From: a virus
Virus record (IMG/VR): IMGVR_UViG_3300043548_000722
Location: 32,001-96,000 of that record
DNA length: 64,000 bases
Reading direction: 5' to 3' (one strand)
Below are positions 1-64,000 of this stretch, in pieces. The translations under genes were made by a program, and so were the position numbers. A model generated the notes under the pieces. It made no database searches and had not been told where the DNA came from. It worked only from the letters and a program-made list of their open reading frames with translations. The first letter of the stretch is position 1; every line of letters begins with the position of its first letter.

Positions 1-2031
1 GATTGCTCTTCCTGGGTCAGCCTGTGGCGTTCCGTTAGGTGCCGGATTTTGCTGCGCGTTGAGAGGATCGATCTGCGAGCCGCGGTCATTCATTAGTTGG
101 ATAACCAGCTGATACAACGGAGGATTCTCCATCTGCATTTGCTGAAGAGCTTGATACATGGCTTCTTCGCCCTGTTCTTTTTTTAGCATGCGTAAGAACG
201 ATGCTGCGCGCTGCGCGATGTACCGCAGGTCCACACCCCCTGACCCAGGCTGGATTGGTGACTGGGCAGACGCCATAGCGGCGGGCATTCCATCCTGATT
301 CGGAGTGGCCGCATTCTCATCGTAGGCGGTAGCTCCTTCTGGAAGCCCAGGAGTTTGCTGAGCCTGATCTCCAGCGGGTCCCTGCTGAGCGGCCGGGTCT
401 TGCGGCATTGCGCCCTGCGCTTGCTGCTGTGCGGCAGCCTGCTGCGCTGCCTGCTGCATCTCCATTTGTACCTGGCCCTGTGCGCGCATGGTCAGGGCCT
501 GCGCCTTGGCTTGGTAGCGTGAGGTCCGAAGCTGGGCTTCTCCCTGAATATCTGCCGAAGCGACCTGCATGCGGCGATTGGACTGAAGCTGCTTCTTGAT
601 CTCTTCGCGCATGCGCTCCGACTCGAGATCGAAATCCTCCCCAAGTTCTTCCATGAGGCGATGATCGCTGATCTTCTGAGCCTGGTTGAGTTGGAGGTAG
701 AACATGCTTCTTTGCAAGTCATCAGCCATACGGAACTTGTCGAATCTCGACGAGACCTTGGGCCACTCCATGAAGGAGGCAATCTTACCCATGATGAAGA
801 CGTTGATCAGCTCGTGGCGCTGCTTGTTGTACCCCAGGAACATGTTTTCCAGTGCCCGGAGCGAGGTACTCGATCCAGACCACTGGAGTCCTCCGAAGAT
901 GAACTCCACAGGAATGCCGGCGCCAGCAAGCATCTGCTCAGCCAGAAGACGCATCTCTTGGTACATCAACAGGGCGCGACCTTGTCCACCGATCTGCTGG
1001 AATCCGATGTTGACAGGAAGGACCGGGATGTAGTTGTGATCCCGCTTCCACATGTTGATTTCTTCATCTACCCGACGTTTCCAGTTCGTCAGGTTGTAGG
1101 CCCCGTAGGGCCCCTCGTTGCCTCCAGTGTTCTGGCCCGGGAAGATCATCCGCATGGGAACGATGTTCTCCATGAGGATTGCCTCGTTGGCCTTCTTCAT
1201 GACCTGGAGGTAGAACGCATCCTTCAGAAGCGGGAAGATCAGGGGCGTGCCCCAGCCTTGATCCTTCTGGGCGATCGTCGGTCGCTTCAGATGGTAGAGG
1301 TTGTCCTCCGAAAAGAGGAGTGACTTGTTCGCGCGGGCGGCTTCAAGGAACTCGAGGGGAAGCGACTCAATCTCGTCGCAGTCTCCAAGTTTGATGTCGT
1401 TGATCACGCTCTTGGGTAGGCGGAAGTAGTACTTGGTCTTTCCAGTAATCTCGTTGTGCTTGATGTCGATGTTCTCTGGATTCCACCGAACCAGGCGAAT
1501 CTGGCGGAAGCTCCGAACGTAGACATCGTGCTGCTTCGCGTAGCCCTCGTGGCCACAGTCGCACTTGTGAAGGTAGAAACGAGAGTCACGCCACTTGTAG
1601 CGGAATCTGTTGGTCTTGGCACGGTAGCGTGCGCCGCAGGAAGCACAGATGAGGTACTTCTCGAACGGCAGGAACACCGAGACAAAGGCGTTTCCGTATA
1701 CGAAGTAGTCGAGCCCGACCTCGACCTGAAATGAGCGCAGCTTGAGGTGATCCTCTACCTTCTTATAAAGCTTCATCACCTCCGGGTCGTCTGTCTCAAA
1801 AATAAGAGGGGTGACCGGGTACTCTGCCATTTTGGAGCACGCGGCGTTGATCACCGGATTTGTCAAGAAGTAATACCGGCACCACTTGTGTAGTTCGTGC
1901 TGATTAGATGGAAGGAACTGCTGAGAGATGTCAAAGAACGGCGACGGATAGCGAATGCCGAATCCTCGGCCACCCTCAGTGGTGACTGGCCTCGGATTAA
2001 AACGGTTTACTTCGCTGGTAATGACGTTCAT
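1..2031 (-). CDS. Portal protein (partial, 3' end beyond window), with Cys-rich insertion and Q/A-rich C-terminal region
   Basis: Not in ORF track because it has no stop in the window. Hand translation from the ATG at 2031 (ATGA overlap with upstream stop): MNVITSEVNRFNPRP...RYPSPFFDISQQFLP...WCRYYFLTNPVINAACSKMAEYPVT...GLDYFVYGNAFVS...LYHLKRP...GWGTPLI...LAGAGIPVEFIFGG. These segments fit portal patterns; about 677 codons open. Confidence 0.8.
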   Translation of the reverse strand, partial: MNVITSEVNRFNPRPVTTEGGRGFGIRYPSPFFDISQQFLPSNQHELHKWCRYYFLTNPVINAACSKMAEYPVTPLIFETDDPEVMKLYKKVEDHLKLRSFQVEVGLDYFVYGNAFVSVFLPFEKYLICASCGARYRAKTNRFRYKWRDSRFYLHKCDCGHEGYAKQHDVYVRSFRQIRLVRWNPENIDIKHNEITGKTKYYFRLPKSVINDIKLGDCDEIESLPLEFLEAARANKSLLFSEDNLYHLKRPTIAQKDQGWGTPLIFPLLKDAFYLQVMKKANEAILMENIVPMRMIFPGQNTGGNEGPYGAYNLTNWKRRVDEEINMWKRDHNYIPVLPVNIGFQQIGGQGRALLMYQEMRLLAEQMLAGAGIPVEFIFGGLQWSGSSTSLRALENMFLGYNKQRHELINVFIMGKIASFMEWPKVSSRFDKFRMADDLQRSMFYLQLNQAQKISDHRLMEELGEDFDLESERMREEIKKQLQSNRRMQVASADIQGEAQLRTSRYQAKAQALTMRAQGQVQMEMQQAAQQAAAQQQAQGAMPQDPAAQQGPAGDQAQQTPGLPEGATAYDENAATPNQDGMPAAMASAQSPIQPGSGGVDLRYIAQRAASFLRMLKKEQGEEAMYQALQQMQMENPPLYQLVIQLMNDRGSQIDPLNAQQNPAPNGTPQADPGRAI

Positions 2032-3050
2032 GACTGCTCATCCTTTCCCTGACCGAATGCTCTGTCTAAGACAGAGCCAGCAGATCCTGTAACGTCAGAA
2101 GCCAGTCCTTCAAATGGAACTGCTGCCATCCCTACCGCTGACGGAACGATCAGTTTCTGGCTTAGGAAAGACCTCTTTCCGCCTGTGATCAAGTTAGATT
2201 TACCTAATCCTAAGTTTCTACCGGTAAATAGATGAGCCGTTCCAGCGGTGATACCCGCAGCAGTTAGGCCACGAGCGAGCCTCTCCGCAACACCACGCTC
2301 ATTGCCCTCATCGTCGGTGGAGGGGAGCGCGTTGGCGACACCAGTGACTCCCACCTGGCCGACCTCAATCGCCCGCTCGCCTGGCATATACGTGGAGATG
2401 CCCCCGCGTAATTTTACGTTCTGTGCGCCAGCTTCTTGGCCGATCTGCCGATACGCGTCAAGCAACTCTTCCTCTGGAATCATTTCTCCCGCGCGCTGGC
2501 GATCCATGATGCTTGTAATTTTAGATCTTAAGTTGTCGCTAGCGTTAAACTTCGGATCTTTGTTAAAAAATCCAGTCAGCCCACCAGAGGACCTTTCGCC
2601 TGCGCTTGCCCATCCTCCCTTGCGGGCTGCTCCAGCCGTATCTGATAACGCGTCAAACTGTGTTGCAGTGCCATCAAGCGCGTTTTCAAAGGCCTCATTC
2701 ATAAGCTCCACGCGTTTAGACCTAGCAGCCCCCTGAGTAAACTCGTCGGCATTATTTCCTGCGAAGCTGGCTCCGCTTGACAGCCCGCGCTTAATACTTT
2801 GAACGGGCTTAGTCGCTACTTCCTTAGCTGCCGTAAAGAGCTTACCGGCCCCGCTAGGATTACGAAGTAGGGCCGCACCAGCTACCAAACCTCCGATTGC
2901 GGGGAGAACCACGCCCGGACCCGTGAAGTTTCTTTGTATGATATTTTTTTTCTTTGGCTCCTGTGCCTCTGGCGCAGAGGGGGTAGCCGAAGAAATCCCA
3001 GCTTGTTTTTGCAACTCAAGTGAGAACGAGTAAAGAACGCTTTTATTCAT
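2028..3050 (-). CDS. Hypothetical protein with FxxELxKxA leader and Gly/Ala-rich hydrophobic segments (putative virion cargo)
   Basis: 340 aa; starts MNKSVLYSFSLELQKQAG; hydrophobic stretch VVLPAIGGLVAGAALL; coupled to the portal gene. Confidence 0.75.
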   Translation of the reverse strand: MNKSVLYSFSLELQKQAGISSATPSAPEAQEPKKKNIIQRNFTGPGVVLPAIGGLVAGAALLRNPSGAGKLFTAAKEVATKPVQSIKRGLSSGASFAGNNADEFTQGAARSKRVELMNEAFENALDGTATQFDALSDTAGAARKGGWASAGERSSGGLTGFFNKDPKFNASDNLRSKITSIMDRQRAGEMIPEEELLDAYRQIGQEAGAQNVKLRGGISTYMPGERAIEVGQVGVTGVANALPSTDDEGNERGVAERLARGLTAAGITAGTAHLFTGRNLGLGKSNLITGGKRSFLSQKLIVPSAVGMAAVPFEGLASDVTGSAGSVLDRAFGQGKDEQS

Positions 3051-3053
3051 AGT

Positions 3054-3842
3054 TCACCTCAGCTCGGCAGTGTAGCGGAAGAGGGCATCGACGGCCTCAT
3101 ATAGTTTTACCGCGCATATATCATCAGCAGTTTCTAGAAGGGTCGGGTTCTTTTTACTTAGAAGAGCGACCAGGGTCCTCTGCACGCCCGCAGTTGGAAG
3201 CTTAGTGACAATCTTTACCTTAGACCCATTAAACTTCTTTCGAAGCCCCTCGTCTGGCTCCATCTTCAATAGACTGTCCGTGTTGTATCGGTCTGTGCAG
3301 TAGCTACAGAGGCCATCCTCTTTTGGCTCCTCTTCATTTCCGCACTCTCCGCAGACCTGTGTGGTCTTCGAGATCAGAGGATTTAAAAACTCCAGTGGCT
3401 CCGGTACGTACCAGATTCCCGACTCATGGAGCTGCGCGGCCATATACCGCCGGACCTCCTCCGCAAATAATGGAATGTCTCCGAGGGTCCCTAAGTCCAA
3501 TCGGATTCTGTTAGCCGCATCTACGGCCAACATAAGGTCAGAGACTGACTGGTTATCAATATGTGAAACAGATGGGATCTTACCCACAAGGGCCTGAGAG
3601 ACTGTGTGGAACGTTTCCCAGCTCTTCCAAAACATGTCGTGGTTGGCAACCGAAATGGCCGCCAGTAGCTTCATGAGCACGACACGGGGGATGTTGAGTT
3701 TCAGGCGATCCTCAACAGACCTTTTAACGACAAAAGGTTCCCACTCCAACGCTCTTGGGCCGAAGAGAGAAAGGTAGCCACGAAGCAAGGAGAGAGGATG
3801 ACTCTTCTCGTCCTTGAATACCTGGATATCAGTACCCACCAT
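3054..3842 (-). CDS. Hypothetical protein with C4 zinc-ribbon motif
   Basis: 262 aa ORF in operon; CGEC...CSYC motif. Confidence 0.75.
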   Translation of the reverse strand: MVGTDIQVFKDEKSHPLSLLRGYLSLFGPRALEWEPFVVKRSVEDRLKLNIPRVVLMKLLAAISVANHDMFWKSWETFHTVSQALVGKIPSVSHIDNQSVSDLMLAVDAANRIRLDLGTLGDIPLFAEEVRRYMAAQLHESGIWYVPEPLEFLNPLISKTTQVCGECGNEEEPKEDGLCSYCTDRYNTDSLLKMEPDEGLRKKFNGSKVKIVTKLPTAGVQRTLVALLSKKNPTLLETADDICAVKLYEAVDALFRYTAELR

Positions 3843-4923
3843 TGTTTGTATCTCTGGACTGCGAGGCCATACGGGACAGGAGGATCTGCTGCTCTAGCGG
3901 CATCTTCTTGAATGTGCCAATCGGATCGCTCTTGAACCGCGACACTACGTCCTCCTCAAAAACATCTTGCAGCGCAGTGTGTGCGGCGGTGCTACCGGCA
4001 TATCGCATCAGCATGGAAGCCGTGACGTAGTCGCCTCCGTGAACCCAGGAATACTCAGCCTGCTTTTCCGTGCCAAAAACTGTGAGTACGGGGTCAGGGA
4101 TGTTCTGGCCATAACGATTTAGGAGTCCAGCACGCTCGTCCATCAGGAAGAGCGCCTCGACGACATCGTCTGGATCGAGCGCCGCCGCCATCTTGGCCAG
4201 TCGAAGGTAGTCTTCCTGGTACGCGGGGTTGGCTGTGTACTCTGCGCGACGAGAAGCAACCTTCTCAAAGCGCGGGTTGAGTGTGGTCCCGCTGTAACGG
4301 AAGATGTGATCCGGGATCTGCGCACCGATGTCGCTTGCGACCTTCACAATGTCGACTGCGGCCTCGTGCCGATCGTACGGATCGAGGTCATCCCATGCCT
4401 CAACGAGGGCCGAGATCGCATCAAAGGCAGACGCAGTCTTCTCATGCCTACCCAGCGGCACAGACATGCCCTTTCCAAGAGGACGCATGATCTGCGACGG
4501 CTCGTATGAGGCGGTTTTCGCGTACTGCGTAGCGGCAGACGCCGCCTTGATCAGTACGCGGCGTCCGTCCCCGGGAAGATCGTCTCCCTCATTGGCAAGG
4601 ATGGTCAGTGCCGGGTGAGAGGCGAGTCCGAGTGCGTCGGCCGCATCGAGAAGATTGGCCGCGGCCACCTTGACCGCCCCGCTGGGCAGGCCGTGCTCTG
4701 CGTTGAGCAAGTACCACTGCGAGAGAAAGGTGTTGCCCGCGTCATGGCACGCAAACTTGCGATGCTCCTTGCCTTGGCTGTCCATGATGATGAGCGCGAA
4801 GTCACGGTCATACAGATCGTCACGCTCCTTCCAGGATGCCGTCTTGAGGAACTCGACGCCGCTCTTGGGTCCAGTCGTGCGAAACAGCTCTCCGAGGTCG
4901 TCATGATGGTCGACTACAGCCAT
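3829..4923 (-). CDS. Hypothetical head-associated protein rich in KxA motifs (scaffold/core candidate)
   Basis: 364 aa; AGGAG RBS upstream; first gene of the portal operon; 10 KxA motifs. Confidence 0.8.
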   Translation of the reverse strand: MAVVDHHDDLGELFRTTGPKSGVEFLKTASWKERDDLYDRDFALIIMDSQGKEHRKFACHDAGNTFLSQWYLLNAEHGLPSGAVKVAAANLLDAADALGLASHPALTILANEGDDLPGDGRRVLIKAASAATQYAKTASYEPSQIMRPLGKGMSVPLGRHEKTASAFDAISALVEAWDDLDPYDRHEAAVDIVKVASDIGAQIPDHIFRYSGTTLNPRFEKVASRRAEYTANPAYQEDYLRLAKMAAALDPDDVVEALFLMDERAGLLNRYGQNIPDPVLTVFGTEKQAEYSWVHGGDYVTASMLMRYAGSTAAHTALQDVFEEDVVSRFKSDPIGTFKKMPLEQQILLSRMASQSRDTNNGGY

Positions 4924-47181: not shown

Positions 47182-47417
47182 TATTCCCCCCGAATCTTCT
47201 TGCCGGCCTCGTCGGCAGACATCCCCAATCTAACATTTCTACCGTAGTGAATTTTATTAGCGAAGTTTTTATCCAGCTGCTCGAAGGCACGCTTAGCAAG
47301 GAGCTGCCGATTATAGAACAGCAAATCCAACATCGCGTTGGTGACCTGCACGTTGGACTTCTCGGCTGCCTCGGACAACATACCTGAAGGGGGTCTCTGA
47401 AAGATGGTATCCATCAC
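47181..47417 (-). CDS. Hypothetical protein
   Basis: 78 aa, coupled in operon. Confidence 0.6.
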   Translation of the reverse strand: MMDTIFQRPPSGMLSEAAEKSNVQVTNAMLDLLFYNRQLLAKRAFEQLDKNFANKIHYGRNVRLGMSADEAGKKIRGE

Positions 47418-47641
47418 ATCATCTCCGGAGTTTGCGGCATCAACGCTGCGCGCTGTGCCAGTTCCCGCTGCTTACGGATCACCTTACCCTCACGCGCATC
47501 CTGAAGGAAGTCCTTTCCGTATGCACCCGCAAGCGTGCCTACGCCCAGTGCCGTTCCCAGCCCGGCCACCTGTCCCCCGGACAGGGCAATCTTTTCAAGC
47601 TCATCAACAAAGAACTGAAACTGCGCTGTAGAGTACCTCAT
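47414..47641 (-). CDS. Small protein with FxxELxKxA leader and glycine-zipper segment
   Basis: MRYSTAQFQFFVDELEKIALSGGQVAGLGTALGVGTLAGAYG. Confidence 0.7.
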   Translation of the reverse strand: MRYSTAQFQFFVDELEKIALSGGQVAGLGTALGVGTLAGAYGKDFLQDAREGKVIRKQRELAQRAALMPQTPEMM

Positions 47642-52920: not shown

Positions 52921-53165
52921 TTACGCACCACAGGCACTCGAGTGGTCACTATAGAAGTCACGATGTCGCGCGACAAAACTGATCCGTGCTTGGACCCTGT
53001 CCTCAACTCATCGATGACCTGTAAGTATCCCTGCCTTACAAGATCTTCGATGATAGGAAACTCAACAATTTCTACTCGTCGTCTGACATCAGATTCCGAG
53101 GTAGTGACGATAGAGGTGACCTTTCGTCGATCCGAGATAGTGTCAAGAATCTGAGTAGGCATCAA
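52917..53165 (-). CDS. Hypothetical protein
   Basis: 82 aa; GGAGG RBS; VTSIVTT occurs twice. Confidence 0.6.
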   Translation of the reverse strand: MMPTQILDTISDRRKVTSIVTTSESDVRRRVEIVEFPIIEDLVRQGYLQVIDELRTGSKHGSVLSRDIVTSIVTTRVPVVRK

Positions 53166-56100: not shown

Positions 56101-56314
56101 AGGGAATAGAAGCCATTCCCAGCAGGGACGTGGCTTGAGAACTAATATTTAGCCCCGATTGCAGCATTTGCGGAGCGTATACGCGCGCGCCAGTCTGCTG
56201 GGAGGGTCCCATCGCATAGCTAAACGACGGAGGAAAGTGAGCACCTCCCACGTTCGGAACCATTGTAGGAGACGCTACTCCTGACATTCCAGGGGCTGTG
56301 CCGTAGGGGATCAC
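53162..56314 (-). CDS. Tape measure-like protein (1050 aa)
   Basis: Long helical Ala/Gly/Met-rich protein with Gly-rich hydrophobic segments, upstream of hub/baseplate genes; GTG start with GGAG RBS. Confidence 0.7.
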   Translation of the reverse strand: MIPYGTAPGMSGVASPTMVPNVGGAHFPPSFSYAMGPSQQTGARVYAPQMLQSGLNISSQATSLLGMASIPLSIAGVGGAAFGSGSGLMMGMLGGPVGVGLMAAGAGAHFAGVGLQQAGAVNQMFGNMQFYNPFGGNPQTGRGFSQSQLNTIQRGITAIGENNPFVSMTDALRATERFTEMGMHQGVQDAEKLAKRVTELGKTLHKMARALGTSMEESSRFFEQMRGAGFYTSADVMGNTASMTFMRGMGMSSQAFSQLLMGGAGMTRGQGMSGKAGGTSVRSVAELLSLGMTSGIGLSGTEMMDITGAQTPADAIAAMSQQVLGSTLQGLSGGAGTLLLSALGTTNQEGRFKGGIDLNLLKRLQTGDLSLQDLKTLGQQKTSTMSGKESFVTRQQDIKQALLETGEGSDAVLALIDEIAKESGKTSEDQIALIAQTQFEMDRRTLRALQKMRDSRKMVNDARTQRIEQERITNENAAANREMTLGGLYQSATGTLEDVQTDLAQPFSRFSRRFTAEAEGIERLVFGGGPSFGVTTGGLSQQARTAAMETLRGGDYFSQVVQDTVGLSSLAQMTLNTENTAQFGAALAPNYGGSLLGAGGVIDAREREALNKEILSIREIADPDKRRKAVQDLRERVRRRLMYANKPHSDREVDAYIGHGSPDNLRLLAEVVAEDGLVGTNLRFAEIERAQESATQAFSGFAGTDVNPIQAAAASALAFPVANPLLKLGAGAVSGIGAMTLNAATKTDLGVFLDEFKSGGPLMDLAAIYDKNQVDIDSIISDSIQTSPSTEKGYEKAAERIRRRYGINITSEQLGTFNSVLSKQLGNKSASERARGLTKDEKGKISKIAAGAVTSQRAMAGSELENTVDRLIRSVSVDSFEGEQAQQIFKQGTQGNKLENLGAVIAAASAGNFQADTTTEQQLIERGVGVYQNLRALSAGGLTPDELRKAGLDGASIDELVRTRGLQGGAFRGDVAEEIVRTLSAAESSAYGTAEGARAVLRRGKTTEDIFSESVITMAETVTKTAEMVDKVERAVSNNRILTALFDPED

Positions 56315-56922: not shown

Positions 56923-58191
56923 ATGGAGTATATCACCCTGTACAATCGGGCGCGTTCCGGCGCCATTCGTATCTGGCAGGTTGCCCTGGAACAGGGCAAG
57001 GTCACCACGCAATTCGGGCAGAAGGACGGAGTCCTGCAAACCGTGGTCGATTACGGCTATGAGAAGAATGTTGGCAAGGCCAACTTCATCTCAGCAGAGC
57101 GAGATGCGGAGAACCTCGTGGATCGACTGATCCGCGAGAAGAAGCGCGAAGGCTACCGCGAAGAGTTGGAAGAGGTCACCTTTGATCCCTTTGACCCTCC
57201 GGAGATGCTGAGCTTCTACAAGCCGCAGAACGCGCTCAACTCCACGATGGAGGCGATGATCGAGCGGAACGAGGCGTGGGCGGTGCGGAAATATGATGGC
57301 GAGATGATGGTGTTGATTCACCGCCCGGATGGCGAGGTCCGTATCCTGTCCCGCAAGATGCACCCGACACACCATCACGAGAACATCCCTTGGTCGGAGA
57401 GGTTTTCGCACATCGCGAACTCTCTGAAGAGGGACACGCCTCGCGGTACGGTTCTCCTGGGCGAGATGGTTGGCCCCGGGTGGAGCGATGATCGTTGGTT
57501 GGTGGCCCAGGTACTCAAGTCTCGAACGGCCCGCGCGATCGAGCTCCAGCGGGCGCACGGGCCGATGCGTTTCCGGGCCTGGGATGTGGCCTGGTGGGGA
57601 ATGGAACAGCTTATCGGGAAGATTGAGTACCGACACAGGTACGACAACATCGACGAGCTTACAGATGGCGACTACCTGCTGCCCGCAGAGGTGCTGGTGG
57701 AGGATGACTACACTGGCGTGGATGACCTGCGGCGCATCGCCGCAGAGAACCGATGGGAGGGGTTCGTGATTGTGAATCCCTGCGATACCTACGGCGATCG
57801 CGGCTTCAACCTGCGGGGCAAGCCGGATCGTCCCTCGGGATGCTGCAAGCTCAAGCCATTCTTTGAAGATGATTTTGTTGCGATCTGGGACCCTGCGAAG
57901 AAGCAGGGCAAGTACGGTCGGGGCAAGTACACGGGCCAGTTCGGCGCGTGCTCCCTGTACCAGATCGACTCGAAAGGGAAGATGCGGTACATCTGCGAGT
58001 GTGGCAACGGCTTCACCGCCGAGTTCATCCGTGAAAACTCGGCGGCTCCGTGGCAGAAGGTCATTCAGGTCCGGTACGAGTCACGGACCTATGAGTCGGA
58101 AGATGACGAAACGAACGCGCTACAGTTTCCCCGCTTCATGATGGAGCGGACGGACAAGAGCGCGGATGAGTGTGTGAATCCCCGGCTCTGA
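56923..58191 (+). CDS. ATP-dependent DNA ligase with N-terminal WGR-like domain
   Basis: Motif I RKYDG, motif III LLGEM, AWDV, motif IV WEGFVI, KLKP, C-terminal LQFPRF...RTDK. Confidence 0.92.
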   Translation: MEYITLYNRARSGAIRIWQVALEQGKVTTQFGQKDGVLQTVVDYGYEKNVGKANFISAERDAENLVDRLIREKKREGYREELEEVTFDPFDPPEMLSFYKPQNALNSTMEAMIERNEAWAVRKYDGEMMVLIHRPDGEVRILSRKMHPTHHHENIPWSERFSHIANSLKRDTPRGTVLLGEMVGPGWSDDRWLVAQVLKSRTARAIELQRAHGPMRFRAWDVAWWGMEQLIGKIEYRHRYDNIDELTDGDYLLPAEVLVEDDYTGVDDLRRIAAENRWEGFVIVNPCDTYGDRGFNLRGKPDRPSGCCKLKPFFEDDFVAIWDPAKKQGKYGRGKYTGQFGACSLYQIDSKGKMRYICECGNGFTAEFIRENSAAPWQKVIQVRYESRTYESEDDETNALQFPRFMMERTDKSADECVNPRL

Positions 58192-58984: not shown

Positions 58985-59206
58985 ATGGACGAAATTCTTA
59001 AGAAGTCGGCTGCTATGCGTATGTTTTTCAACATCAACACCTTTCGATGGGAGTCCATGGATCCAGAGATCTCACGGGCCATCCAACAGGTGTACGCAGA
59101 TAACCCTATTCTTACTCTGGGATCTGTTCCTTTCGCGGTTTTTGCGGAGTTAATCCGCGTAGTGCTCTGCTGCGATCCGCCCTCCGAACGCCCTCCAGAA
59201 GAGTAA
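58985..59206 (+). CDS. Hypothetical protein (73 aa)
   Basis: AGGAG RBS before ATG 58985 (MDEILKKS); TGGTATAA extended -10-like element near 58862. Confidence 0.5.
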   Translation: MDEILKKSAAMRMFFNINTFRWESMDPEISRAIQQVYADNPILTLGSVPFAVFAELIRVVLCCDPPSERPPEE

Positions 59207-60122
59207 AGTCGCTTGGAGCAACGTTTTGTATTCCGTACAGTGTACGGAACATCTCCGATTGGGTGATTGGAGTAGTCAGTATCGCTTTGCGACGAAACGC
59301 GGAATCTTCCATAAGCCTTTGCATAAAGCCACTTTGACGCTGCATTAGGGTTTCTATGTCCGGGGCTGTACTCCCGACCGGCAATCCTACCCACCTCTGC
59401 ACAAAGCGCGACCTCGGGCTGCTAGCAGCTAGCGTCTGTGCAGCGCGGTCGGGGGAAGATGGAATGAAGTCAATAATTTTGGGACCAGAGGCCGTCATAA
59501 TCGTATTACCAGGATTGCCTACTACATCTCCAAGGGTCTTTTTTGCTCCCATCCGGAAATTACTTGCCGGAAGATGCGCCACGGCCCGAGTAAAGTCAGT
59601 GCTCCCGGGGGCATTGAGCTGCTCTGGGGTCACATAGCTGGCGAAGTCCTTTTCGGGTCCCGAGACGAACTCTGTGTGGTAATACGGAGTGCCGCTGTCC
59701 GCCCGCCGAAGCTTCGGACTGTAGAGTGTGGCGAACGTAGGGTCTTTGGTCGCACGCGCTCTTCTGAGCATATTAAATTTTTCGGCGAGTACTCGTTGGT
59801 CGTAAAGTGGGCCCTTGGTATCAAAGGTCTTCATAACCGACAAGGGCACAGGGGAATCTGTGGAACCTACAACAAGGGCTGCGGGCCCTTCGGCCCCGCT
59901 TCCGAGTACCTTTATAATAGAGCCCATTCGGGTTTTTTTCAGGGAACCCTCGGCGTCTAATTTTTCTGCAAGCCGCGTTGCTCCGGAGATATCTCCTGCC
60001 TCCACAAGTGCCCGCAGGTCTTTTAGATATCGGCGCGCTGCAATTTTTGTCTGGCCTGCAGACTCTTCAGCCCACAAGGGATGAGTAAGTAGAATAGCCT
60101 CGTATGCGGCAACTTTATTCAT
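59112..60122 (-). CDS. Protein kinase-like domain protein with KxA leader
   Basis: Gly loop LGSGAEG, beta3 VMK, hinge TEFVSG, catalytic GDVVGNPGN, KIIDF; leader MNKVAA...QTKIAA. Confidence 0.7.
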   Translation of the reverse strand: MNKVAAYEAILLTHPLWAEESAGQTKIAARRYLKDLRALVEAGDISGATRLAEKLDAEGSLKKTRMGSIIKVLGSGAEGPAALVVGSTDSPVPLSVMKTFDTKGPLYDQRVLAEKFNMLRRARATKDPTFATLYSPKLRRADSGTPYYHTEFVSGPEKDFASYVTPEQLNAPGSTDFTRAVAHLPASNFRMGAKKTLGDVVGNPGNTIMTASGPKIIDFIPSSPDRAAQTLAASSPRSRFVQRWVGLPVGSTAPDIETLMQRQSGFMQRLMEDSAFRRKAILTTPITQSEMFRTLYGIQNVAPSDFTLLEGVRRADRSRALRGLTPQKPRKEQIPE

Positions 60123-62634
60123 CTTGATCTCCAGTTTGAGGGATTGATGTTACACCGTCGTTAGTGTCTTGGCTAGGAAGCTCTACAGTCTTATTTTTAT
60201 TGGCAGCTCGGCGCCTCAAAATCTCTGCGGCGAGAGGGACCCCTGCCGAAGGTATTGCACCCGCGGCATACGTACCATAGGCAGGTAGCAGAGTTTTGAG
60301 GCGCCTCCCACGGACTGCTGGAGCGGCAGCCATCATAGCCCGCGCGGTTGCGCGTGCCTCCTCAAGCAGCACAGGTGCCCACATTGACGTTGCCCCAGCG
60401 ATGCCCAAGTTTCTTGCTTGAGCCCATCGTTTTTCAGGATCTTGCTCATTGGCCATAGTCGCTTTTGCTCCATAGCCAAACGCCCCTAAAGTAAGGCCCG
60501 TGCCAACCAGGCGGGCAGGTAGTATGGAACTCTGAAGTATCTTTTTCCCAACTCCACCTGCTGCATGTCCAAGTTCGTGGGCAAGGACATCAGGATCTTT
60601 TATCCCCTCCATGAAGACTTTGTTGATAGTTGGGTTGTAGTGCGGCCCACGTCCCTGCAACTGCGCGGCAATTAGATCTGCTATTTGTGCTCTTTCTGTG
60701 GGGGGACGACCCTCTACAATTTTACGAAGAAGATAATTATCAGTCATCAGTTTCTCAGCATCGGCTTTAGTTGGAGCCCCTTGAGATGCAGGTACAGGAG
60801 AGTTTTTAAACATTGTATCGAACTCATTTGGATCTCTGGGGCTATTTCTTAACTTGTCCACAACAGAACGACCTGCCGCATTCTGAAGTGTCTTACCGGC
60901 TACGGTCGCTGCTCCAAGGACTCCAAGGGATGTACCAAGAGCCCTTTTTTTGGACACGCCCTGTTTGTCTTCCGCGGACTCAGATGATGCTCGCTTCTCC
61001 CTATTTTTAGCTGACCCGTCTGCCGGCTCATTCTTCGGCCACAGCTCACGACGCGCCCAGTAGTTTGCACTGAGCTTGTCGTTGGCAGTCAGACTCCCGT
61101 CTTTGCCGCGGATTCCGGCCGAACGCGTGAGGTAGTTCTTCTTTGCCGCGTCGGAGTAGTTGTGCTTGTAGCCCTTCTGCCCAAAGTGGATCAGCTTGAC
61201 CTGGTCCCCTTTCTTGGCAAGAACCATCTTTTTCTTCTCGGGACGGTCGGAGTCAATCGGCTGGTTGTACCCAGGAAAGGTACGGCCGCGATACTCGATC
61301 TCAGCCTGCTTGATCACCTCCTCATCTTCCAGAGGCGCGTCGGCATTCCGCTGAAGAGCTATGGCTCGACGACGAAGTAGCTCAGCAGACAGTGGTAGTC
61401 CGGCTGAAGGTAGCGCAGAAATAGCATATGTTCCGAACGCTGGTGTAAGGGCGGCCAGTCTGCGTAAACGAGCTCCCTTGGGAGCCGCCAGGACTGCCCG
61501 TCCGCTAGCCCGGCCTTCCTCAAGAAGCGTTGGTACGTGCTGTAGTGCGGCCCCTACCGTTCCAAAATTTCTTGAGTGTTCAAACCTGCGCTCCTGTTCC
61601 TCTGGGGTTCGTCCCGCAGCACTGACCATTAGTGCGGCAGACCCAAACCGCATACCCGTGCCCACTGAAGGCACGAGACCTTTACTAAGTGCGTGCAATA
61701 TTCTTTTCCCCCACGTACCCTCAGAGTGTCCCATTTCATGGGCCAAGAAGTCTGGGTTAACCGCACCCCCCGTAAGAATCATCTTAGGAGACTCGAGGTA
61801 CTTGGGTGTGGTATCTTTGAAGTAGTCAGACAGTACCTGTGCGAGCTCAGGCAACTCCTCGACCCCGATGTCGAAATTGTCGAGCACGGTCGGGTCTCTT
61901 TTTAGAATCTCTAGAATCTCATCTGCGGACGGGTTCGCCATTAAGACGGGCACGCCTTTGGACTCAATGCTGGCACGTAACGAGTTAAATTCTCTGACCC
62001 TAGTTCTGTCGCGAAGCTGCCCCTCTATAATTGGAGTCAGCAGTCCCTTGTCAACGCCGAATGCGGTGGCTCCTAGTCCGGCTGTGGCCCCAACACCTGT
62101 CCCGAGAATTGTGCTCGCGGATACGTTATCCCCTGGATAATGTGACACGGCCGAGGCTGCTTTAGTTGCAGCTGCGTTTGCAATCCGAGCCTTCATGCCC
62201 GCGGACATACCGGGGTGGTCTCTCTTAAGAGCTTTATAGATCTCCTTGACCTTTGCTGGCCGATCCTGCTCCAGAAAGGGCGGCATATCAGACGCCGATT
62301 TGGTTTGAGACTTTTGGTAATCTCTGAGGTCTTTATACTTTGACTTTACTTTGTTACCAGTTTCTTTGGCGGAGCTAGCTAAACTGCGAGCCGCGTCAAC
62401 TCCCGCTCGAACAGCCAATCCTCCCGAAGCCAAGCCTCCGGCATAAAGAGCCCCTCGAAGGACCGGATTTTTCTTAGCAAAATCACTTCCCATTGGTAGA
62501 TATTTTGTCATCAGTGCGCCAGAACCCGCGGCTCCCGCGATTCCAGTAAGGCTTTTAGTGTAATCTTCCTGTTTGTAGGAGGGGCCGACATCAACTTCCG
62601 CAGACTTGTAAAAAAGAGAAATCTCTCGGATCAT
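60115..62634 (-). CDS. KxA-punctuated polyprotein: two HExxH zinc metallopeptidase modules plus small basic modules
   Basis: HEMGH (61726-61740) and HELGH (60565-60579), each followed by EExRA and TYA; KSAE, KSAS, KAAS, KQAE, KRAS at module junctions. Confidence 0.8.
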   Translation of the reverse strand: MIREISLFYKSAEVDVGPSYKQEDYTKSLTGIAGAAGSGALMTKYLPMGSDFAKKNPVLRGALYAGGLASGGLAVRAGVDAARSLASSAKETGNKVKSKYKDLRDYQKSQTKSASDMPPFLEQDRPAKVKEIYKALKRDHPGMSAGMKARIANAAATKAASAVSHYPGDNVSASTILGTGVGATAGLGATAFGVDKGLLTPIIEGQLRDRTRVREFNSLRASIESKGVPVLMANPSADEILEILKRDPTVLDNFDIGVEELPELAQVLSDYFKDTTPKYLESPKMILTGGAVNPDFLAHEMGHSEGTWGKRILHALSKGLVPSVGTGMRFGSAALMVSAAGRTPEEQERRFEHSRNFGTVGAALQHVPTLLEEGRASGRAVLAAPKGARLRRLAALTPAFGTYAISALPSAGLPLSAELLRRRAIALQRNADAPLEDEEVIKQAEIEYRGRTFPGYNQPIDSDRPEKKKMVLAKKGDQVKLIHFGQKGYKHNYSDAAKKNYLTRSAGIRGKDGSLTANDKLSANYWARRELWPKNEPADGSAKNREKRASSESAEDKQGVSKKRALGTSLGVLGAATVAGKTLQNAAGRSVVDKLRNSPRDPNEFDTMFKNSPVPASQGAPTKADAEKLMTDNYLLRKIVEGRPPTERAQIADLIAAQLQGRGPHYNPTINKVFMEGIKDPDVLAHELGHAAGGVGKKILQSSILPARLVGTGLTLGAFGYGAKATMANEQDPEKRWAQARNLGIAGATSMWAPVLLEEARATARAMMAAAPAVRGRRLKTLLPAYGTYAAGAIPSAGVPLAAEILRRRAANKNKTVELPSQDTNDGVTSIPQTGDQDE

Positions 62635-62637
62635 GGC

Positions 62638-63879
62638 TCATTTCCCCTTACTAAGGCTTGTGTTTGCAGCAAGGCCGTGCGAGCTGTATTGCTCGCCTTG
62701 ACGGGTGGCTTCGCGCTTCTGGCGCGCAGCCTTGGCGAGACGGTCCTTGCCCTCTTCAGTCTGGCGTAGTCTATCCGCTTTTTGCTTTGGAAGATATACC
62801 CCTCTTCCGCCTTCGCCTGGCTTGTCGCCACCTGTCCAGTTCCAGTCCTGCTTGGTCCACTTCTTCAAGGAGTTGTTAGACGCAGAGGGCTTGGCGCCGG
62901 AGTAACCCCCGCCTTTGTCCTTGTAGATTTTGGTCGCGAGTTGCATGGCGCGCGCAGAGTGCTTGCCGCCCATCTTGGCGCGCGCCTCGGCTTTGGCTTG
63001 CTCCCATTTCTGCGGGTCAGTCTTGGTAGCGGTAGCTGAGGCTGTCTTACCTGTAAATGGAGAGTCTATCGGGCTTGGGAACCTCTTATTTGCTATATCC
63101 CTGGCGCAGTCACGGGTAAAATCGCATACTCGACCGTCTACCATTGACGAGCCAGGAGCAAGTGGTGGGTGTCCCATTTTTTTAAGTGAATCATTTACGA
63201 GTGGCTCTAGTTCTCCTTTTCTCCACATCCAACGGTCATCGAAGAGGAAGAGTGTCGGGGCTGCATGGCGAATTTCACTCTCCCTGCCACCTGTGGCCTC
63301 CCTGATGGCCTGTTGTACTTCTTCTGGAGACAGGTCGTGCTCTATGGCTTTAAGACCCATTTCGTAGCGTGTGTAGTCATCCATGTGTTTTTGAAGTCGT
63401 TGTTGTACAAACTGCGCCTTAACCTCTTGGGGGATAGCACTCGCAGACTGGATTGTACTAGGATTTAAATTGGGCATCTGATTTGGCATCTGATTCGGCA
63501 GGCCACGCTTAAGTGTCCGCAGGCCGAGTGCTCCAAGTCCGAGTGCTCCAAGTGCTCCAGCAGACCCCAGGAGAATGTTTCGTCTCCTGCGCTCGGCCGC
63601 GTCCCGTTCAGACTGCTCATTCTTTTGGGGATCTACCTTGGTGGCAGTTGCGGAAGCCTGCTTTTTAAGGAGCGAAACTTCGGCTTTGGACTCTCCATAG
63701 CTTCCAGGATACGCCGTGCCGAGCGCCTTCCCGATCCCATCATATGCAGAGTAGACCTTGTACTCGGCCCAGGAAGGGATCTCCAGACCAAGATCGATCT
63801 TCTCCTTGAGATGTTTCGCCTGCGCGGCGATTCTCTCAAGGGTCTTGCTCAGCATGTGTGAGTCGTCGTACTCGCTCAT
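62638..63879 (-). CDS. KxA-punctuated polyprotein with C-terminal DUF5872-like basic domain
   Basis: C-terminal KWEQAK...HSARAMQLA...YK.KGGGY.G.K...SLKKWTKQDW...YLPK; junctions KQAS and KTAS. Confidence 0.75.
   Translation of the reverse strand: MSEYDDSHMLSKTLERIAAQAKHLKEKIDLGLEIPSWAEYKVYSAYDGIGKALGTAYPGSYGESKAEVSLLKKQASATATKVDPQKNEQSERDAAERRRRNILLGSAGALGALGLGALGLRTLKRGLPNQMPNQMPNLNPSTIQSASAIPQEVKAQFVQQRLQKHMDDYTRYEMGLKAIEHDLSPEEVQQAIREATGGRESEIRHAAPTLFLFDDRWMWRKGELEPLVNDSLKKMGHPPLAPGSSMVDGRVCDFTRDCARDIANKRFPSPIDSPFTGKTASATATKTDPQKWEQAKAEARAKMGGKHSARAMQLATKIYKDKGGGYSGAKPSASNNSLKKWTKQDWNWTGGDKPGEGGRGVYLPKQKADRLRQTEEGKDRLAKAARQKREATRQGEQYSSHGLAANTSLSKGK
63473..63559. repeat. Two short in-frame tandem repeats (12 nt and 15 nt units)
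   Basis: GGCATCTGATTY x2 (63473-63496, encodes PNQM x2) and CCGAGTGCTCCAAGT x2 (63524-63553, encodes GALGL repeats). Confidence 0.8.
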
Positions 63880-64000
63880 TTGCGACCTTCCCAGTCGAGG
63901 GAGACCTCATCCTTGGTGATGGGGCCGCCGGAAGCCCAAGTATAGCAAGATCGCGCCGAATGGCACTTGAAGTCGTGCATGTGGCAGTAGCCGAGATGGC
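63876..64000 (-). CDS. Partial CDS (3' end) with Cys/His-rich domain
   Basis: Hand translation ...HLGYCHMHDFKCHSARSCYTWASGGPITKDEVSLDWEGRK*; ATGA overlap with the next gene. Confidence 0.7.
   Translation of the reverse strand, partial: HLGYCHMHDFKCHSARSCYTWASGGPITKDEVSLDWEGRK

What the first reader, a model, noticed from the sequence alone, without database searches (positions are those of the whole stretch)
59112..64000. Candidate new system: K-x-A punctuated polyproteins, a Lys-x-Ala targeting/processing code for virion cargo
Seen in sequence: the genes of this cluster are strings of unrelated modules, and the module boundaries carry K-x-A-[S/A/E]. The 839-aa gene reads FYKSAE | Gly-rich segment | QTKSAS (K at 62299-62301) | DMPPFLEQDRP..KALKRDH module | ATKAAS (62161) | metallopeptidase 1 | VIKQAE (61309) | IEYRGRTFPGYNQP..SANYWARRELW module | REKRAS (60994) | metallopeptidase 2. 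The 413-aa gene has LKKQAS and TGKTAS; the kinase gene has MNKVAA and QTKIAA. The motif also ends leaders in distant genes (ELQKQAG at 2028-3050, ELEKIAL at 47414-47641, WMIKTAA in the sigma factor) and saturates the portal-operon protein 3829-4923. It is not obviously placed at domain boundaries in the replication enzymes. Established: T4 internal proteins carry a roughly 10-aa capsid-targeting leader removed by gp21, and T4/phiKZ prohead proteases cut after Glu. Inference: this phage's prohead protease cuts after K-x-A, so polyproteins are packaged and split into separate effectors that are injected with the DNA, and the motif acts as a docking point for new modules.
Basis: partly seen in the sequence, partly recalled or inferred. 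Interest (0 to 1): 0.92.

Follow-up and report, generated by a model that had tools for sequence, protein, structure and literature searches.

The report
K-x-A-S cut-site code in phage cargo
A group of large phages, including the culturable Salmonella phage Arash, carries a short Lys-x-Ala-Ser motif around its head protease, in scaffold-like proteins, after shared leaders and between modules of multi-module cargo proteins, so it is most likely that protease's cut site, but no cleavage has been measured.

Summary
In the focal genes their number is not above chance (839-aa protein: KxA 7 vs 8.6 expected; KxA[S/A/E] 5 vs 2.3, p=0.08).

What is non-random is the genome-wide pattern and the placement:
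- K-x-A-S is the most over-represented a.bc tetrapeptide pattern in this 107.6-kb phage (47 vs 11, z=10.9). It ranks 1, 1, 2 and 5 in four relatives and is absent in a control phage.
- It concentrates in the head block (38 vs 4.4).
- It flanks the putative prohead protease domain (28/29 and 23/29 homologues).
- It ends the major capsid protein (MCP) leader and a leader shared by eight unrelated proteins.
- It sits at homology breakpoints of the cargo modules.

For one widespread module, 70 of 133 representatives have K-x-A directly upstream, and stand-alone forms start at that exact residue. KxA junctions co-occur with the protease family (11/11 vs 0/12 contigs).

Best reading (about 0.6): a prohead protease that cuts after Ala, as herpesvirus assemblin does, trims leaders, scaffold and multi-module ("polyvalent") cargo proteins. 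This is a new variant of T4/phiKZ-type head processing. The "kinase" label is unsupported. The scan's other first readers noted the same motif elsewhere in this genome.

The parts
60115..62634 (-). 839-aa multi-module cargo protein. Modules by residue: N-terminal Gly-zipper segment 1-114; DMPPFL/DUF7218-like 115-160; metallopeptidase module 1 (HExxH) 161-444; IEYRG module 445-549; metallopeptidase module 2 (HExxH) 550-839.
   Evidence: ORF. Pfam/PHROG module hits. MP1 and MP2 are 35% identical, E=5e-34. Module-wise BLAST to relatives. Atlas structure hits of MP1 to stand-alone viral proteins of 276-295 aa and to PF04298.
62293..62301 (-). K112-S-A114 (then S): junction between the N-terminal segment and the DMPPFL module.
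   Evidence: In relative G001 the same module is preceded by K-T-A-A in a different protein.
62155..62163 (-). K158-A-A160 (then S): junction between the DMPPFL module and metallopeptidase module 1.
   Evidence: In G001 the DMPPFL module ends in K-E-A and is followed directly by the IEYRG module, with no MP1.
61303..61311 (-). K442-Q-A444 (then E): junction between metallopeptidase module 1 and the IEYRG module.
   Evidence: 70 of 133 representatives of the module have K-x-A at exactly -3..-1, and stand-alone forms start M|S-I-E-Y-R-G. The AF2 model is ordered from module residue 1.
60988..61302 (-). IEYRG module (105 aa). It is a widespread virus module, also fused to portal proteins and to XkdF-type prohead proteases.
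   Evidence: phrog_220 7.5e-32 and phrog_7595. tblastn to portal and protease genes. 555 representative proteins. AF2 pLDDT 88. BFVD matches but no PDB match.
60988..60996 (-). K547-R-A549 (then S): junction between the IEYRG module and metallopeptidase module 2.
   Evidence: 40 of 41 fused representatives have KxA within 35 aa after the module's conserved end. This stretch has pLDDT below 50 in the model.
62599..62607 (-). K10-S-A12 (then E): possible end of a short N-terminal leader of the 839-aa protein.
   Evidence: Position only; no comparative support was obtained.
62638..63879 (-). 413-aa multi-module protein. K73-Q-A-S lies at 63655-63663 and K278-T-A-S at 63040-63048. The C-terminal 'ATKTDP' module (residues 281-413) is shared with G001 (87% identity) and G003 (67%) behind different N-terminal parts.
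   Evidence: The junction upstream of the shared module is K-T-A|S here, K-L-S|S in G001 and K-E-A|Q in G003.
59112..60122 (-). 336-aa protein carrying the shared M-[DN]-K-x-A-A-Y...HPLW leader, which ends in K26-I-A28. The body has no known family; the 'kinase' label is not supported.
   Evidence: The leader is shared by 4 proteins of this phage and 4 of G001 with unrelated bodies.
3829..4923 (-). 364-aa K-x-A-rich head-block protein with 9 K-x-A-[S/A/E] sites. It is a candidate scaffold/core protein that is cut into small pieces.
   Evidence: 10 KxA vs 2.3 expected, and 9 vs 0.5 for KxA[SAE]; none of 2000 shuffles reached either. Six of the nine sites are conserved in position in G002 at 36% identity.
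47414..47641 (-). 75-aa protein: a short leader ending in E-K-I-A, followed by a Gly-zipper hydrophobic segment.
2028..3050 (-). 340-aa head-block protein with an N-terminal leader ending in Q-K-Q-A-G.
   Evidence: Only weak comparative data (42% identity to G001).

Best explanation
K-x-A followed by S (less often A, E or G) is most likely the recognition site of this phage clade's prohead maturation protease, with cleavage after the Ala.

**The protease.** It is a 631-aa protein encoded 20-22 kb left of the window (genome 9744-11639). It probably has an assemblin/T4 gp21-type fold.

**Proposed sequence of events inside the procapsid:**
1. The protease frees its own catalytic domain at flanking K-T-A-S sites, as herpes assemblin does at its release site.
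2. It removes a leader of about 25 aa from the major capsid protein.
3. It chops several scaffold/core-like proteins at 7-10 sites each.
4. It trims a shared N-terminal leader of about 20-28 aa from small cargo proteins.
5. It separates the modules of multi-module ('polyvalent') cargo proteins such as the 839-aa and 413-aa proteins of this finding. The released modules would leave the head with the DNA.

**Shown:** motif statistics, placement, conservation, and co-occurrence with the protease family.

**Inferred:** that the motif is cut, by which enzyme, exactly at which bond, and that the products are packaged and ejected.
For: **1. Unbiased motif statistics.**
- K.AS ranks 1 of about 8000 a.bc patterns here: 47 vs 11.0 expected, z=10.9, shuffle maximum 23.
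- It ranks 1 in G001 and G002, 2 in G003, and 5 in the distant G007, whose protease is 36% identical.
- A control phage without the protease family (G011) shows none: 9 vs 10.7.

**2. Location in the genome.**
- Head block: 38 vs 4.4.
- Replication block: 1 vs 1.3.
- Giant/tail-like block: 3 vs 2.5.
- Cargo cluster, KxA[SAE]: 15 vs 7.6.

**3. Purifying selection.** Against G002, motif Lys is conserved 67% vs 26% for other Lys (p=0.0013). Motif Ala is conserved 67% vs 38% (p=0.03).

**4. The protease.**
- 25 of 30 family members hit phrog_18299, 'head maturation protease' (best E 4.7e-7).
- The top Foldseek rows are T4 gp21 and herpes proteases, though not significant.
- K-T-A-[S/G] lies upstream of the catalytic domain in 28/29 homologues and K-x-A-S downstream in 23/29.

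**5. Major capsid protein.** The candidate (phrog_2522; 27% identical to Arash gp226) keeps K-x-A-A at residues 23-26 in all four genomes.

**6. Junctions.**
- 70 of 133 representatives of the IEYRG module have K-x-A at -3..-1 behind unrelated upstream sequence.
- 9 stand-alone forms start at Met immediately before the same residue.
- 40 of 41 fused forms have K-x-A again just after the module.
- The module lacks K-x-A in ICP1, GR11A and CL131.
- The core of the neighbouring 1129-aa helicase protein (residues 285-745) equals the stand-alone Arash gp217 and is flanked by K-E-A at 276 and 759.

**7. Co-occurrence.** All 7 further contigs with a K-x-A junction encode the protease family, against 0 of 12 without one. 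G000-G003 also have both.

**8. Shared leader.** A leader ending in K-x-A sits on 8 proteins with unrelated bodies.

**9. Virion presence in a cultured relative.** Arash virion mass spectrometry found the helicase gp217 (1148 spectra), the protease homologue gp222 (365) and the KxA-rich gp220 and gp223 (PMC10585845).

**10. Precedent for the specificity.** Herpes assemblin cuts after Ala at YLQA-T and VQA-S sites (PMC4498786).
Against: - There is no proteomic or biochemical evidence of cleavage in any member.
- The fold assignment of the protease is weak: Foldseek E 0.098; VIA Z 3.4-3.8, below unrelated rows. There is no Pfam hit.
- The motif count in the focal genes is not above shuffles.
- Genome-wide enrichment in Arash is mild: K.AS 24 vs 14.8, z=2.4.
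- The phages that share the motif and the protease are related, so the co-occurrence counts are not independent events.
- Arash's KxA-rich proteins have 96-100% reported peptide coverage in virions. That is compatible with retained fragments but does not demonstrate cleavage.
- The N-terminal region of the capsid protein is conserved as a whole, so its K-x-A site is not discriminating on its own.
Confidence: 0.6

Rival explanations
1. K-x-A-S is a processing site, but it is cut by another enzyme: one of the HExxH metallopeptidase modules embedded in the cargo proteins (the autoprocessing proposed for polyvalent proteins) or a host protease.
For: - Iyer et al. 2017 predict that embedded zincin-like peptidases process polyvalent proteins (PMC5512222).
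- The 839-aa protein carries two HExxH modules.
Against: - G001 and G002 show no BLASTP match to the metallopeptidase module (E 1e-3), yet K.AS ranks 1 in both.
- The motif is densest in the head block and flanks the serine-protease domain.
- K-x-A junctions track the prohead protease family, 11/11 vs 0/12.
- The metallopeptidase modules look membrane-embedded, resembling PF04298 only by a weak structure match.
Confidence: 0.08
2. K-x-A-S is a conserved short linear motif that is not cleaved. It could be a docking or packaging tag bound by the protease/scaffold or the capsid interior, or a linker/helix-cap signature that tolerates domain insertion.
For: - All evidence is positional and evolutionary; nothing shows a broken bond.
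- Arash KxA-rich proteins are detected in mature virions with high coverage.
- The motif also occurs inside conserved regions, such as the capsid protein N-terminus.
Against: - Stand-alone homologues begin exactly at the residue after K-x-A.
- The motif brackets the protease catalytic domain like the herpes release site.
- 7-10 sites per scaffold-like protein is the pattern of T4/phiKZ core proteins that are degraded.
- P2 is variable while P3 and P1 are fixed, as in protease subsites.
Confidence: 0.2
3. The pattern is an artefact of composition, gene-calling errors or shared ancestry of a few repeated segments.
For: - The first crude gene calls did contain an antisense artefact.
- The focal genes alone are not enriched.
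Against: - The result holds with codon-scored gene calls, per-protein composition-matched expectation and shuffles.
- The flanks of the sites are unrelated.
- The pattern is seen in five genomes whose proteases are as little as 36% identical, and is absent in a control.
Confidence: 0.02

Closest known systems
T4 gp21 prohead protease with capsid-targeting leaders of the internal proteins; phiKZ gp175 and SPN3US gp245 processing of head and ejection proteins
   Same: - A head maturation protease with a 3-4-residue motif.
- That motif ends N-terminal leaders/propeptides on unrelated internal proteins.
- It occurs many times in scaffold/core proteins.
- It flanks the protease itself.
- Cargo includes a virion RNA polymerase.
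   Different: - The motif is K-x-A|S, not (L/I)-x-E| or (S/A/G)-x-E|.
- Sites also lie between modules inside long multi-module proteins, not only after N-terminal propeptides.
- The protease family has no Pfam model and only a weak PHROG match.
Herpesvirus assemblin (protease-scaffold precursor with release and maturational sites)
   Same: - Cleavage after Ala with Ser/Thr at P1', e.g. YLQA-T and VQA-S (PMC4498786).
- An N-terminal catalytic domain followed by a long C-terminal extension carrying further sites.
- Self-release at a site just after the catalytic domain.
   Different: - P3 here is an invariant Lys.
- There is an additional conserved site upstream of the catalytic domain.
- Fold similarity is only suggestive.
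- The hosts are bacteria.
Polyvalent proteins of phages and conjugative elements (Iyer, Burroughs, Anand, de Souza, Aravind 2017, PMC5512222)
   Same: - Strings of unrelated, shuffled effector-type domains.
- The domains include SNF2 helicase, SWIM-like Zn module, HExxH peptidases and domains of unknown function.
- The genes lie near virion genes and the products are predicted to travel with the DNA.
   Different: - That work predicts processing by embedded metallopeptidases and defines no junction motif.
- Here a defined K-x-A-S junction is tied to the prohead protease.
- The HExxH modules here do not match the PolyVal or other Pfam peptidase families.
Salmonella phage Arash (OQ632216; PMC10585845)
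   Same: - A cultured member of the clade with a protease homologue (gp222, 33% identity).
- K-x-A-rich neighbours gp220, gp223 and gp225.
- Capsid protein with K-E-A at residues 27-29.
- Virion-packaged RNA polymerase, sigma factor and helicase.
   Different: - The paper mentions neither a protease nor cleavage.
- Arash lacks the IEYRG module.
- Its genome-wide K.AS excess is mild.

Membership tests
Assemblin / T4 gp21 / HK97-type prohead serine protease | Profile match to a head maturation protease family | tested here: met
   phrog_18299 'head maturation protease' is matched by 25 of 30 family members, best E 4.7e-7 and 3.8e-5 for this phage. There is no Pfam hit.
Assemblin / T4 gp21 / HK97-type prohead serine protease | Assemblin-like fold | tested here: inconclusive
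   The AF2 model has pLDDT 73. The Foldseek top rows are T4 gp21 (E 0.098) and the HCMV/KSHV proteases, none significant. VIA gives VZV protease Z 3.8 and gp21 Z 3.4, among unrelated rows.
Assemblin / T4 gp21 / HK97-type prohead serine protease | Invariant catalytic Ser and His | tested here: inconclusive
   Invariant His (in H-R-F-R-H-H) and Ser (in S-M-G) exist in 30 aligned homologues. Their superposition on the catalytic residues of solved proteases was not established.
Assemblin / T4 gp21 / HK97-type prohead serine protease | Gene lies in the head module next to scaffold and capsid genes | tested here: met
   The gene order is large terminase, a 407-aa KxAS-rich protein, the protease, a 326-aa KxA-rich protein, then the capsid protein. 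The order is the same in Arash, gp220 to gp226.
Assemblin / T4 gp21 / HK97-type prohead serine protease | Proteolytic activity on head proteins | not testable with these tools
   Needs biochemistry or virion N-terminomics.
Polyvalent proteins (Iyer et al. 2017) | Two or more unrelated effector-type domains in one polypeptide, with mosaic shuffling between relatives | tested here: met
   The 839-aa protein has five segments. G001 is syntenic at 80-93% identity in core genes but shares only single modules in this cluster. The IEYRG module occurs at any position in proteins of 93-2325 aa.
Polyvalent proteins (Iyer et al. 2017) | Embedded zincin-like metallopeptidase of the polyvalent-protein type | tested here: inconclusive
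   Two HExxH modules are present. Pfam gives only sub-threshold Reprolysin hits (E 0.03-0.08). The Atlas structure match to PF04298 has TM 0.52/0.62.
Polyvalent proteins (Iyer et al. 2017) | Delivered into the host with the DNA | not testable with these tools
   The only support is indirect. The helicase core of the neighbouring 1129-aa protein is 41% identical to Arash gp217, an abundant virion protein.
T4-type capsid targeting sequence system | Short N-terminal leader shared by otherwise unrelated internal proteins and ending in the protease motif | tested here: met
   The M-[DN]-K-x-A-A-Y...HPLW...K-x-A leader is on 4 proteins here and 4 in G001. One G001 carrier has a body homologous to the middle of the 413-aa protein.
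T4-type capsid targeting sequence system | Cleavage motif (L/I)-x-E | tested here: not met
   The enriched motif is K-x-A-S. This system works like the T4 system but is not a member of it.
Zn_peptidase_2 (PF04298) membrane metallopeptidase, for the two MP modules | Pfam profile match above threshold | tested here: not met
   PF04298 is not among the hits at E<=0.1. Only a structural resemblance of the Atlas model was seen.

The most novel reading that the evidence does not exclude
In this clade the prohead protease doubles as a polyprotein-processing enzyme. On this reading:
- Any module flanked by K-x-A|S, or placed behind the M-D-K-x-A-A-Y...HPLW leader, is loaded into the head, released as a separate protein and ejected.
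- The motif therefore acts as a portable junction. It lets cargo modules be swapped freely between phages.
- The protease has converged on, or retained, the Ala|Ser specificity of herpesvirus assemblin.
- The code would be directly usable to load foreign proteins into Arash-type capsids.
Probability: 0.35. Interest if true: 0.75.

Novelty: new variant of a known kind. Interest (0 to 1): 0.62.

Why it matters
**What it would add.**
- A third class of phage prohead-protease specificity, Lys-x-Ala|Ser, beside the Glu-directed T4/phiKZ type and the Lys-directed HK97 type.
- Its P1/P1' matches the herpesvirus enzyme, which bears on the shared ancestry of these proteases.

**What it would explain.**
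- How multi-module 'polyvalent' cargo proteins are taken apart.
- Why their modules shuffle so freely.

**Practical use.**
- A simple sequence rule to predict mature virion proteins and ejected effectors in a large, mostly uncultured phage clade. The protease family has more than 256 homologues, all annotated as hypothetical.
- The clade has a cultured Salmonella member with published virion mass spectrometry, so the prediction can be tested quickly.

Tried and rejected
- **Crude gene calling.** Longest-ORF calling picked an antisense ORF over the capsid gene (genome 4369-5610 +). Low Atlas recognition and a stop-to-stop listing exposed it. I replaced it with codon-scored calls, and the statistics were unchanged.
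- **KxA counts in the focal genes.** Not significant, so counting alone does not support the finding.
- **'Kinase' label for the 336-aa protein.** No Pfam or PHROG hit.
- **Sequence searches of solved structures.** The 839-aa protein and the protease profile gave nothing meaningful.
- **Fold searches.** The protease model gave no significant match. The IEYRG module matches no solved structure, only viral predicted models.
- **Metallopeptidase modules as the processing enzyme.** Rejected as the main explanation, because G001 and G002 lack them yet keep the motif.
- **K-x-A as an intrinsic part of the IEYRG module.** Rejected. Stand-alone forms start after it, and ICP1, GR11A and CL131 lack it.
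- **Tool limits.** Alignment A2 was too diverse for the search for related loci, so I used A3.
- **Not run.** Complex prediction was skipped because protease-substrate pairs are a poor use of it. Read laying and the look-up of sequencing runs were also not used.
Full report
**Source and layout**

The window is bases 32001-96000 of a 107,650-bp IMG/VR virus record estimated to be 58% complete. I placed the whole record in the script box and fetched relatives:
- G001: 164.6 kb, syntenic, 80-93% identical in core genes.
- G002: 188 kb, complete.
- G003: a 48-kb fragment.
- Later, G007: 174.7 kb, complete, with a protease only 36% identical.
- G011: a 102.7-kb control phage.

**Observation**

The three minus-strand ORFs (336, 839 and 413 aa) and every quoted motif are present at the stated coordinates. 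The counts in these genes are not unusual:
- 839-aa protein: 7 KxA against 8.6 expected from shuffles, and 5 KxA[S/A/E] against 2.3 (p=0.08).
- 413-aa protein: 3 against 4.6.
- 336-aa protein: 2 against 2.0.

**The motif is real at genome scale**

I scanned all patterns of the form a.bc against per-protein composition.
- K.AS came first by a wide margin: 47 observed, 11.0 expected, z=10.9. The highest value in 2000 within-protein shuffles was 23.
- The fuller logo is E/L at P4, K at P3, T/V/I/S/Q/M at P2, A at P1, and S (47 vs 11) much more often than A or E at P1'.
- K.AS also ranks 1 in G001 (40 vs 15.1) and G002 (34 vs 13.8), 2 in G003 (17 vs 5.3) and 5 in G007 (25 vs 10.2).
- In the control phage G011 it is 9 vs 10.7.

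Within this genome the excess sits in the head/virion block:
- Head/virion block: 38 vs 4.4.
- Replication block: 1 vs 1.3.
- Giant/tail-like proteins: 3 vs 2.5.
- Cargo cluster holding the finding, KxA[SAE]: 15 vs 7.6.

Individual proteins are saturated with the motif. The 364-aa protein at window 3829-4923 has 9 sites against 0.5 expected. Outside the window, proteins of 407, 326 and 500 aa have 7-10 sites each.

Motif residues are under selection. Against G002, motif Lys is conserved 67% vs 26% for other Lys (p=0.0013), and motif Ala 67% vs 38% (p=0.03). Six of the nine sites of the 364-aa protein keep their position at 36% overall identity, while P2 and P1' vary.

**The enzyme candidate**

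A 631-aa protein (genome 9744-11639) lies between the large terminase and KxA-rich scaffold-like proteins.
- It and 24 of 29 aligned homologues match PHROG 18299, 'head maturation protease' (best E 4.7e-7).
- It has more than 256 homologues, all unnamed, and some are interrupted by inteins.
- An AF2 model of residues 30-310 (pLDDT 73) gives T4 gp21 and the HCMV/KSHV proteases as top Foldseek rows. None is significant (E 0.098 and above), and VIA-align scores are only Z 3.4-3.8. The fold assignment is therefore suggestive, not established.
- In the alignment, K-T-A-[S/G] precedes the catalytic region in 28 of 29 homologues and K-x-A-S follows it in 23 of 29. Further conserved sites lie in the C-terminal extension of about 330 aa.

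This is the architecture of the herpes protease-scaffold precursor. Its release and maturational sites are cut after Ala, at YLQA-T and VQA-S (PMC4498786).

The major capsid protein had been hidden by an antisense ORF in my first gene calls. It is a 376-aa protein matching phrog_2522 (E 2e-4) and 27% identical to the annotated capsid protein of phage Arash. It keeps K-x-A-A at residues 23-26 in all four genomes.

**Module junctions**

The 839-aa protein divides as follows:

| Residues | Segment |
|---|---|
| 1-114 | N-terminal Gly-zipper segment |
| 115-160 | DMPPFL/DUF7218-like module |
| 161-444 | HExxH module 1 |
| 445-549 | IEYRG module |
| 550-839 | HExxH module 2 |

The evidence for these boundaries:
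- The two HExxH modules are paralogues (35% identity, E=5e-34).
- The Atlas model of the first HExxH module matches stand-alone viral proteins of 276-295 aa and, weakly, PF04298 membrane zinc peptidases.
- In G001 the DMPPFL module is preceded by K-T-A-A in a different protein. It runs straight into the IEYRG module through K-E-A-E, with no HExxH module between.
- G002 and G003 carry the IEYRG module behind D-K-T-A-A and G-K-Y-A-S in yet other proteins.

Four of the five K-x-A-[S/A/E] sites of the 839-aa protein thus lie within 3 residues of independent homology breakpoints. By my own arithmetic, the chance of that for five random positions is about 6e-6.

The IEYRG module gave the strongest test.
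- An exhaustive search found 555 representative proteins of 93-2325 aa with the module at any position.
- Among 133 with a complete N-terminal alignment, 70 have K-x-A at exactly -3..-1 behind unrelated upstream sequence.
- Nine are stand-alone proteins that start M then S/A-[IV]-E-Y-R-G, at the very residue that would become the new N-terminus.
- 40 of 41 fused forms have K-x-A again within 35 residues after the module.
- The AF2 model (pLDDT 88) is ordered from its first residue and disordered over the downstream K-R-A.
- The K-x-A is not part of the module itself. ICP1 gp125 (where the module is the C-terminus of the capsid protease), GR11A and the CL131 portal fusion all lack it.

Two further junction examples:
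- The neighbouring 1129-aa protein, just beyond the window, contains an SNF2 helicase core (residues 285-745). This core is 41% identical to the stand-alone 472-aa Arash gp217 and is bracketed by K-E-A at 276 and 759.
- The C-terminal module of the 413-aa protein is shared with G001 and G003 behind different N-terminal parts. The junctions are K-T-A|S, K-L-S|S and K-E-A|Q.

**Link between motif and protease**

All seven further IMG/VR contigs that carry a K-x-A junction on the IEYRG module encode the protease family (E 1e-138 to 6e-28), even fragments of 15-50 kb. None of twelve contigs without the junction does, and five of those are at least 96% complete. With G000-G003 this makes 11/11 against 0/12. 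The K-x-A phages are related to each other, so these are not independent events.

G001 and G002 show no match to the HExxH module, yet keep the motif. That argues against the embedded metallopeptidases as the processing enzyme.

**Leaders**

Four proteins here, including the 336-aa protein of the finding, and four in G001 share the leader M-[DN]-K-x-A-A-Y..L...HPLW. It is followed by K-x-A at residues 18-28 and then by unrelated bodies. One G001 carrier has a body homologous to the middle of the 413-aa protein. This parallels the T4 capsid-targeting sequence. The 'kinase' label for the 336-aa protein has no support.

**A cultured relative**

Salmonella phage Arash (180.8 kb) has:
- the protease homologue gp222 (33% identity);
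- K-x-A-rich neighbours gp220 (10 sites in 307 aa), gp223 (8 in 255 aa) and gp225 (7 in 200 aa);
- a capsid protein with K-E-A at residues 27-29.

Its published virion proteome contains gp217 helicase (1148 spectra), gp222 (365), gp220 (289) and gp223 (283), plus RNA polymerase subunits and a sigma factor (PMC10585845). The paper mentions neither a protease nor cleavage. Genome-wide K.AS enrichment in Arash is mild (24 vs 14.8).

**Interpretation**

The best-supported mechanism is a prohead protease that cuts K-x-A|S. It would free itself, trim the capsid protein and the leaders, degrade scaffold/core proteins, and separate the modules of packaged polyvalent proteins.

Shown here:
- the statistics;
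- placement at junctions;
- conservation;
- co-occurrence with the protease family;
- virion presence of homologues in Arash.

Inferred: cleavage itself, the scissile bond, the responsible enzyme, and packaging and ejection in this phage.

The main rival is an uncleaved docking or linker motif, which I put at about 0.2.

**Comparison with known systems**

The system works like T4 gp21, phiKZ gp175 and SPN3US gp245 head processing (PMC10052503), and like the processing predicted for polyvalent proteins (PMC5512222). It differs in three ways:
- a different, assemblin-like specificity;
- a defined junction motif;
- use of the head protease rather than embedded peptidases.

I rate it a new variant of a known kind, with moderate to high interest because it can be tested quickly in Arash. 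Other first-stage readers of this scan noted the same motif elsewhere in this genome. I tested those leads here rather than relying on them.

Noticed in passing
L002:4369-5610 (+) versus L002:4393-5523 (-), outside the window: A 413-aa plus-strand ORF that is 'conserved' in all relatives is the antisense shadow of the real 376-aa major capsid gene on the minus strand. Longest-ORF calling in this 56% GC genome is misleading.
   Followed up: yes
L003:4866-11216 (-), genome 24866-31216, just left of the window: A 2116-aa single-chain RNA polymerase-like protein sits in the virion block. Residues 19-1488 are 30% identical to the Arash 'RNA polymerase beta' protein, which is the most abundant protein in Arash virion mass spectrometry. 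The window's sigma factor (46351-47181) matches Arash gp10, also found in virions.
   Followed up: partly
protease homologues such as P0068, P0076, P0083, P0089; G001 terminase and DnaB: Several protease homologues of about 1010-1046 aa carry Hint/LAGLIDADG/intein Pfam domains. In G001 the large terminase (1006 vs 593 aa) and the DnaB-like helicase (881 vs 469 aa) look similarly interrupted. Inteins seem common in this clade's essential genes.
   Followed up: no
window 60988-61302 (-): The IEYRG module has no counterpart among solved structures. It matches predicted structures from iridovirus and marseillevirus proteins, XkdF-type prohead proteases and a ChaB fusion. In ICP1 it forms the C-terminus of the capsid protease, so it may be a capsid-interior or scaffold-binding domain.
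   Followed up: partly
L004:6385-9774 (-), genome 96385-99774, right of the window: A 1129-aa polyvalent protein with, in order: a signal-like N-terminus, a SWIM-like CxC...CxH module followed by K-T-A-A, an SNF2 helicase, a segment matching phrog_1128, and an HNH/endonuclease VII-like C-terminus. The same SWIM-like module followed by K-T-A-S occurs after the IEYRG module in G002.
   Followed up: partly
window 47414-47641 (-), 60115-62634 (-), 62638-63879 (-): Gly-zipper (GxxxG-rich) hydrophobic segments often follow K-x-A sites, for example after E-K-I-A in the 75-aa protein and at the start of both HExxH modules. This suggests membrane-active released pieces.
   Followed up: no
window 56923-58191 (+): An ATP-dependent DNA ligase (PF01068, E 4.9e-10) is encoded on the opposite strand between the virion-type genes and the cargo cluster. 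It is conserved in G001 (59% identity).
   Followed up: no
window 53162-56314 (-): A 1050-aa Gly/Met/Ala-rich protein with no family hit has 4 KxA[SAE] sites against 1.1 expected (p=0.02), clustered in its C-terminal quarter. It is only 36% identical to its G001 counterpart despite synteny.
   Followed up: no
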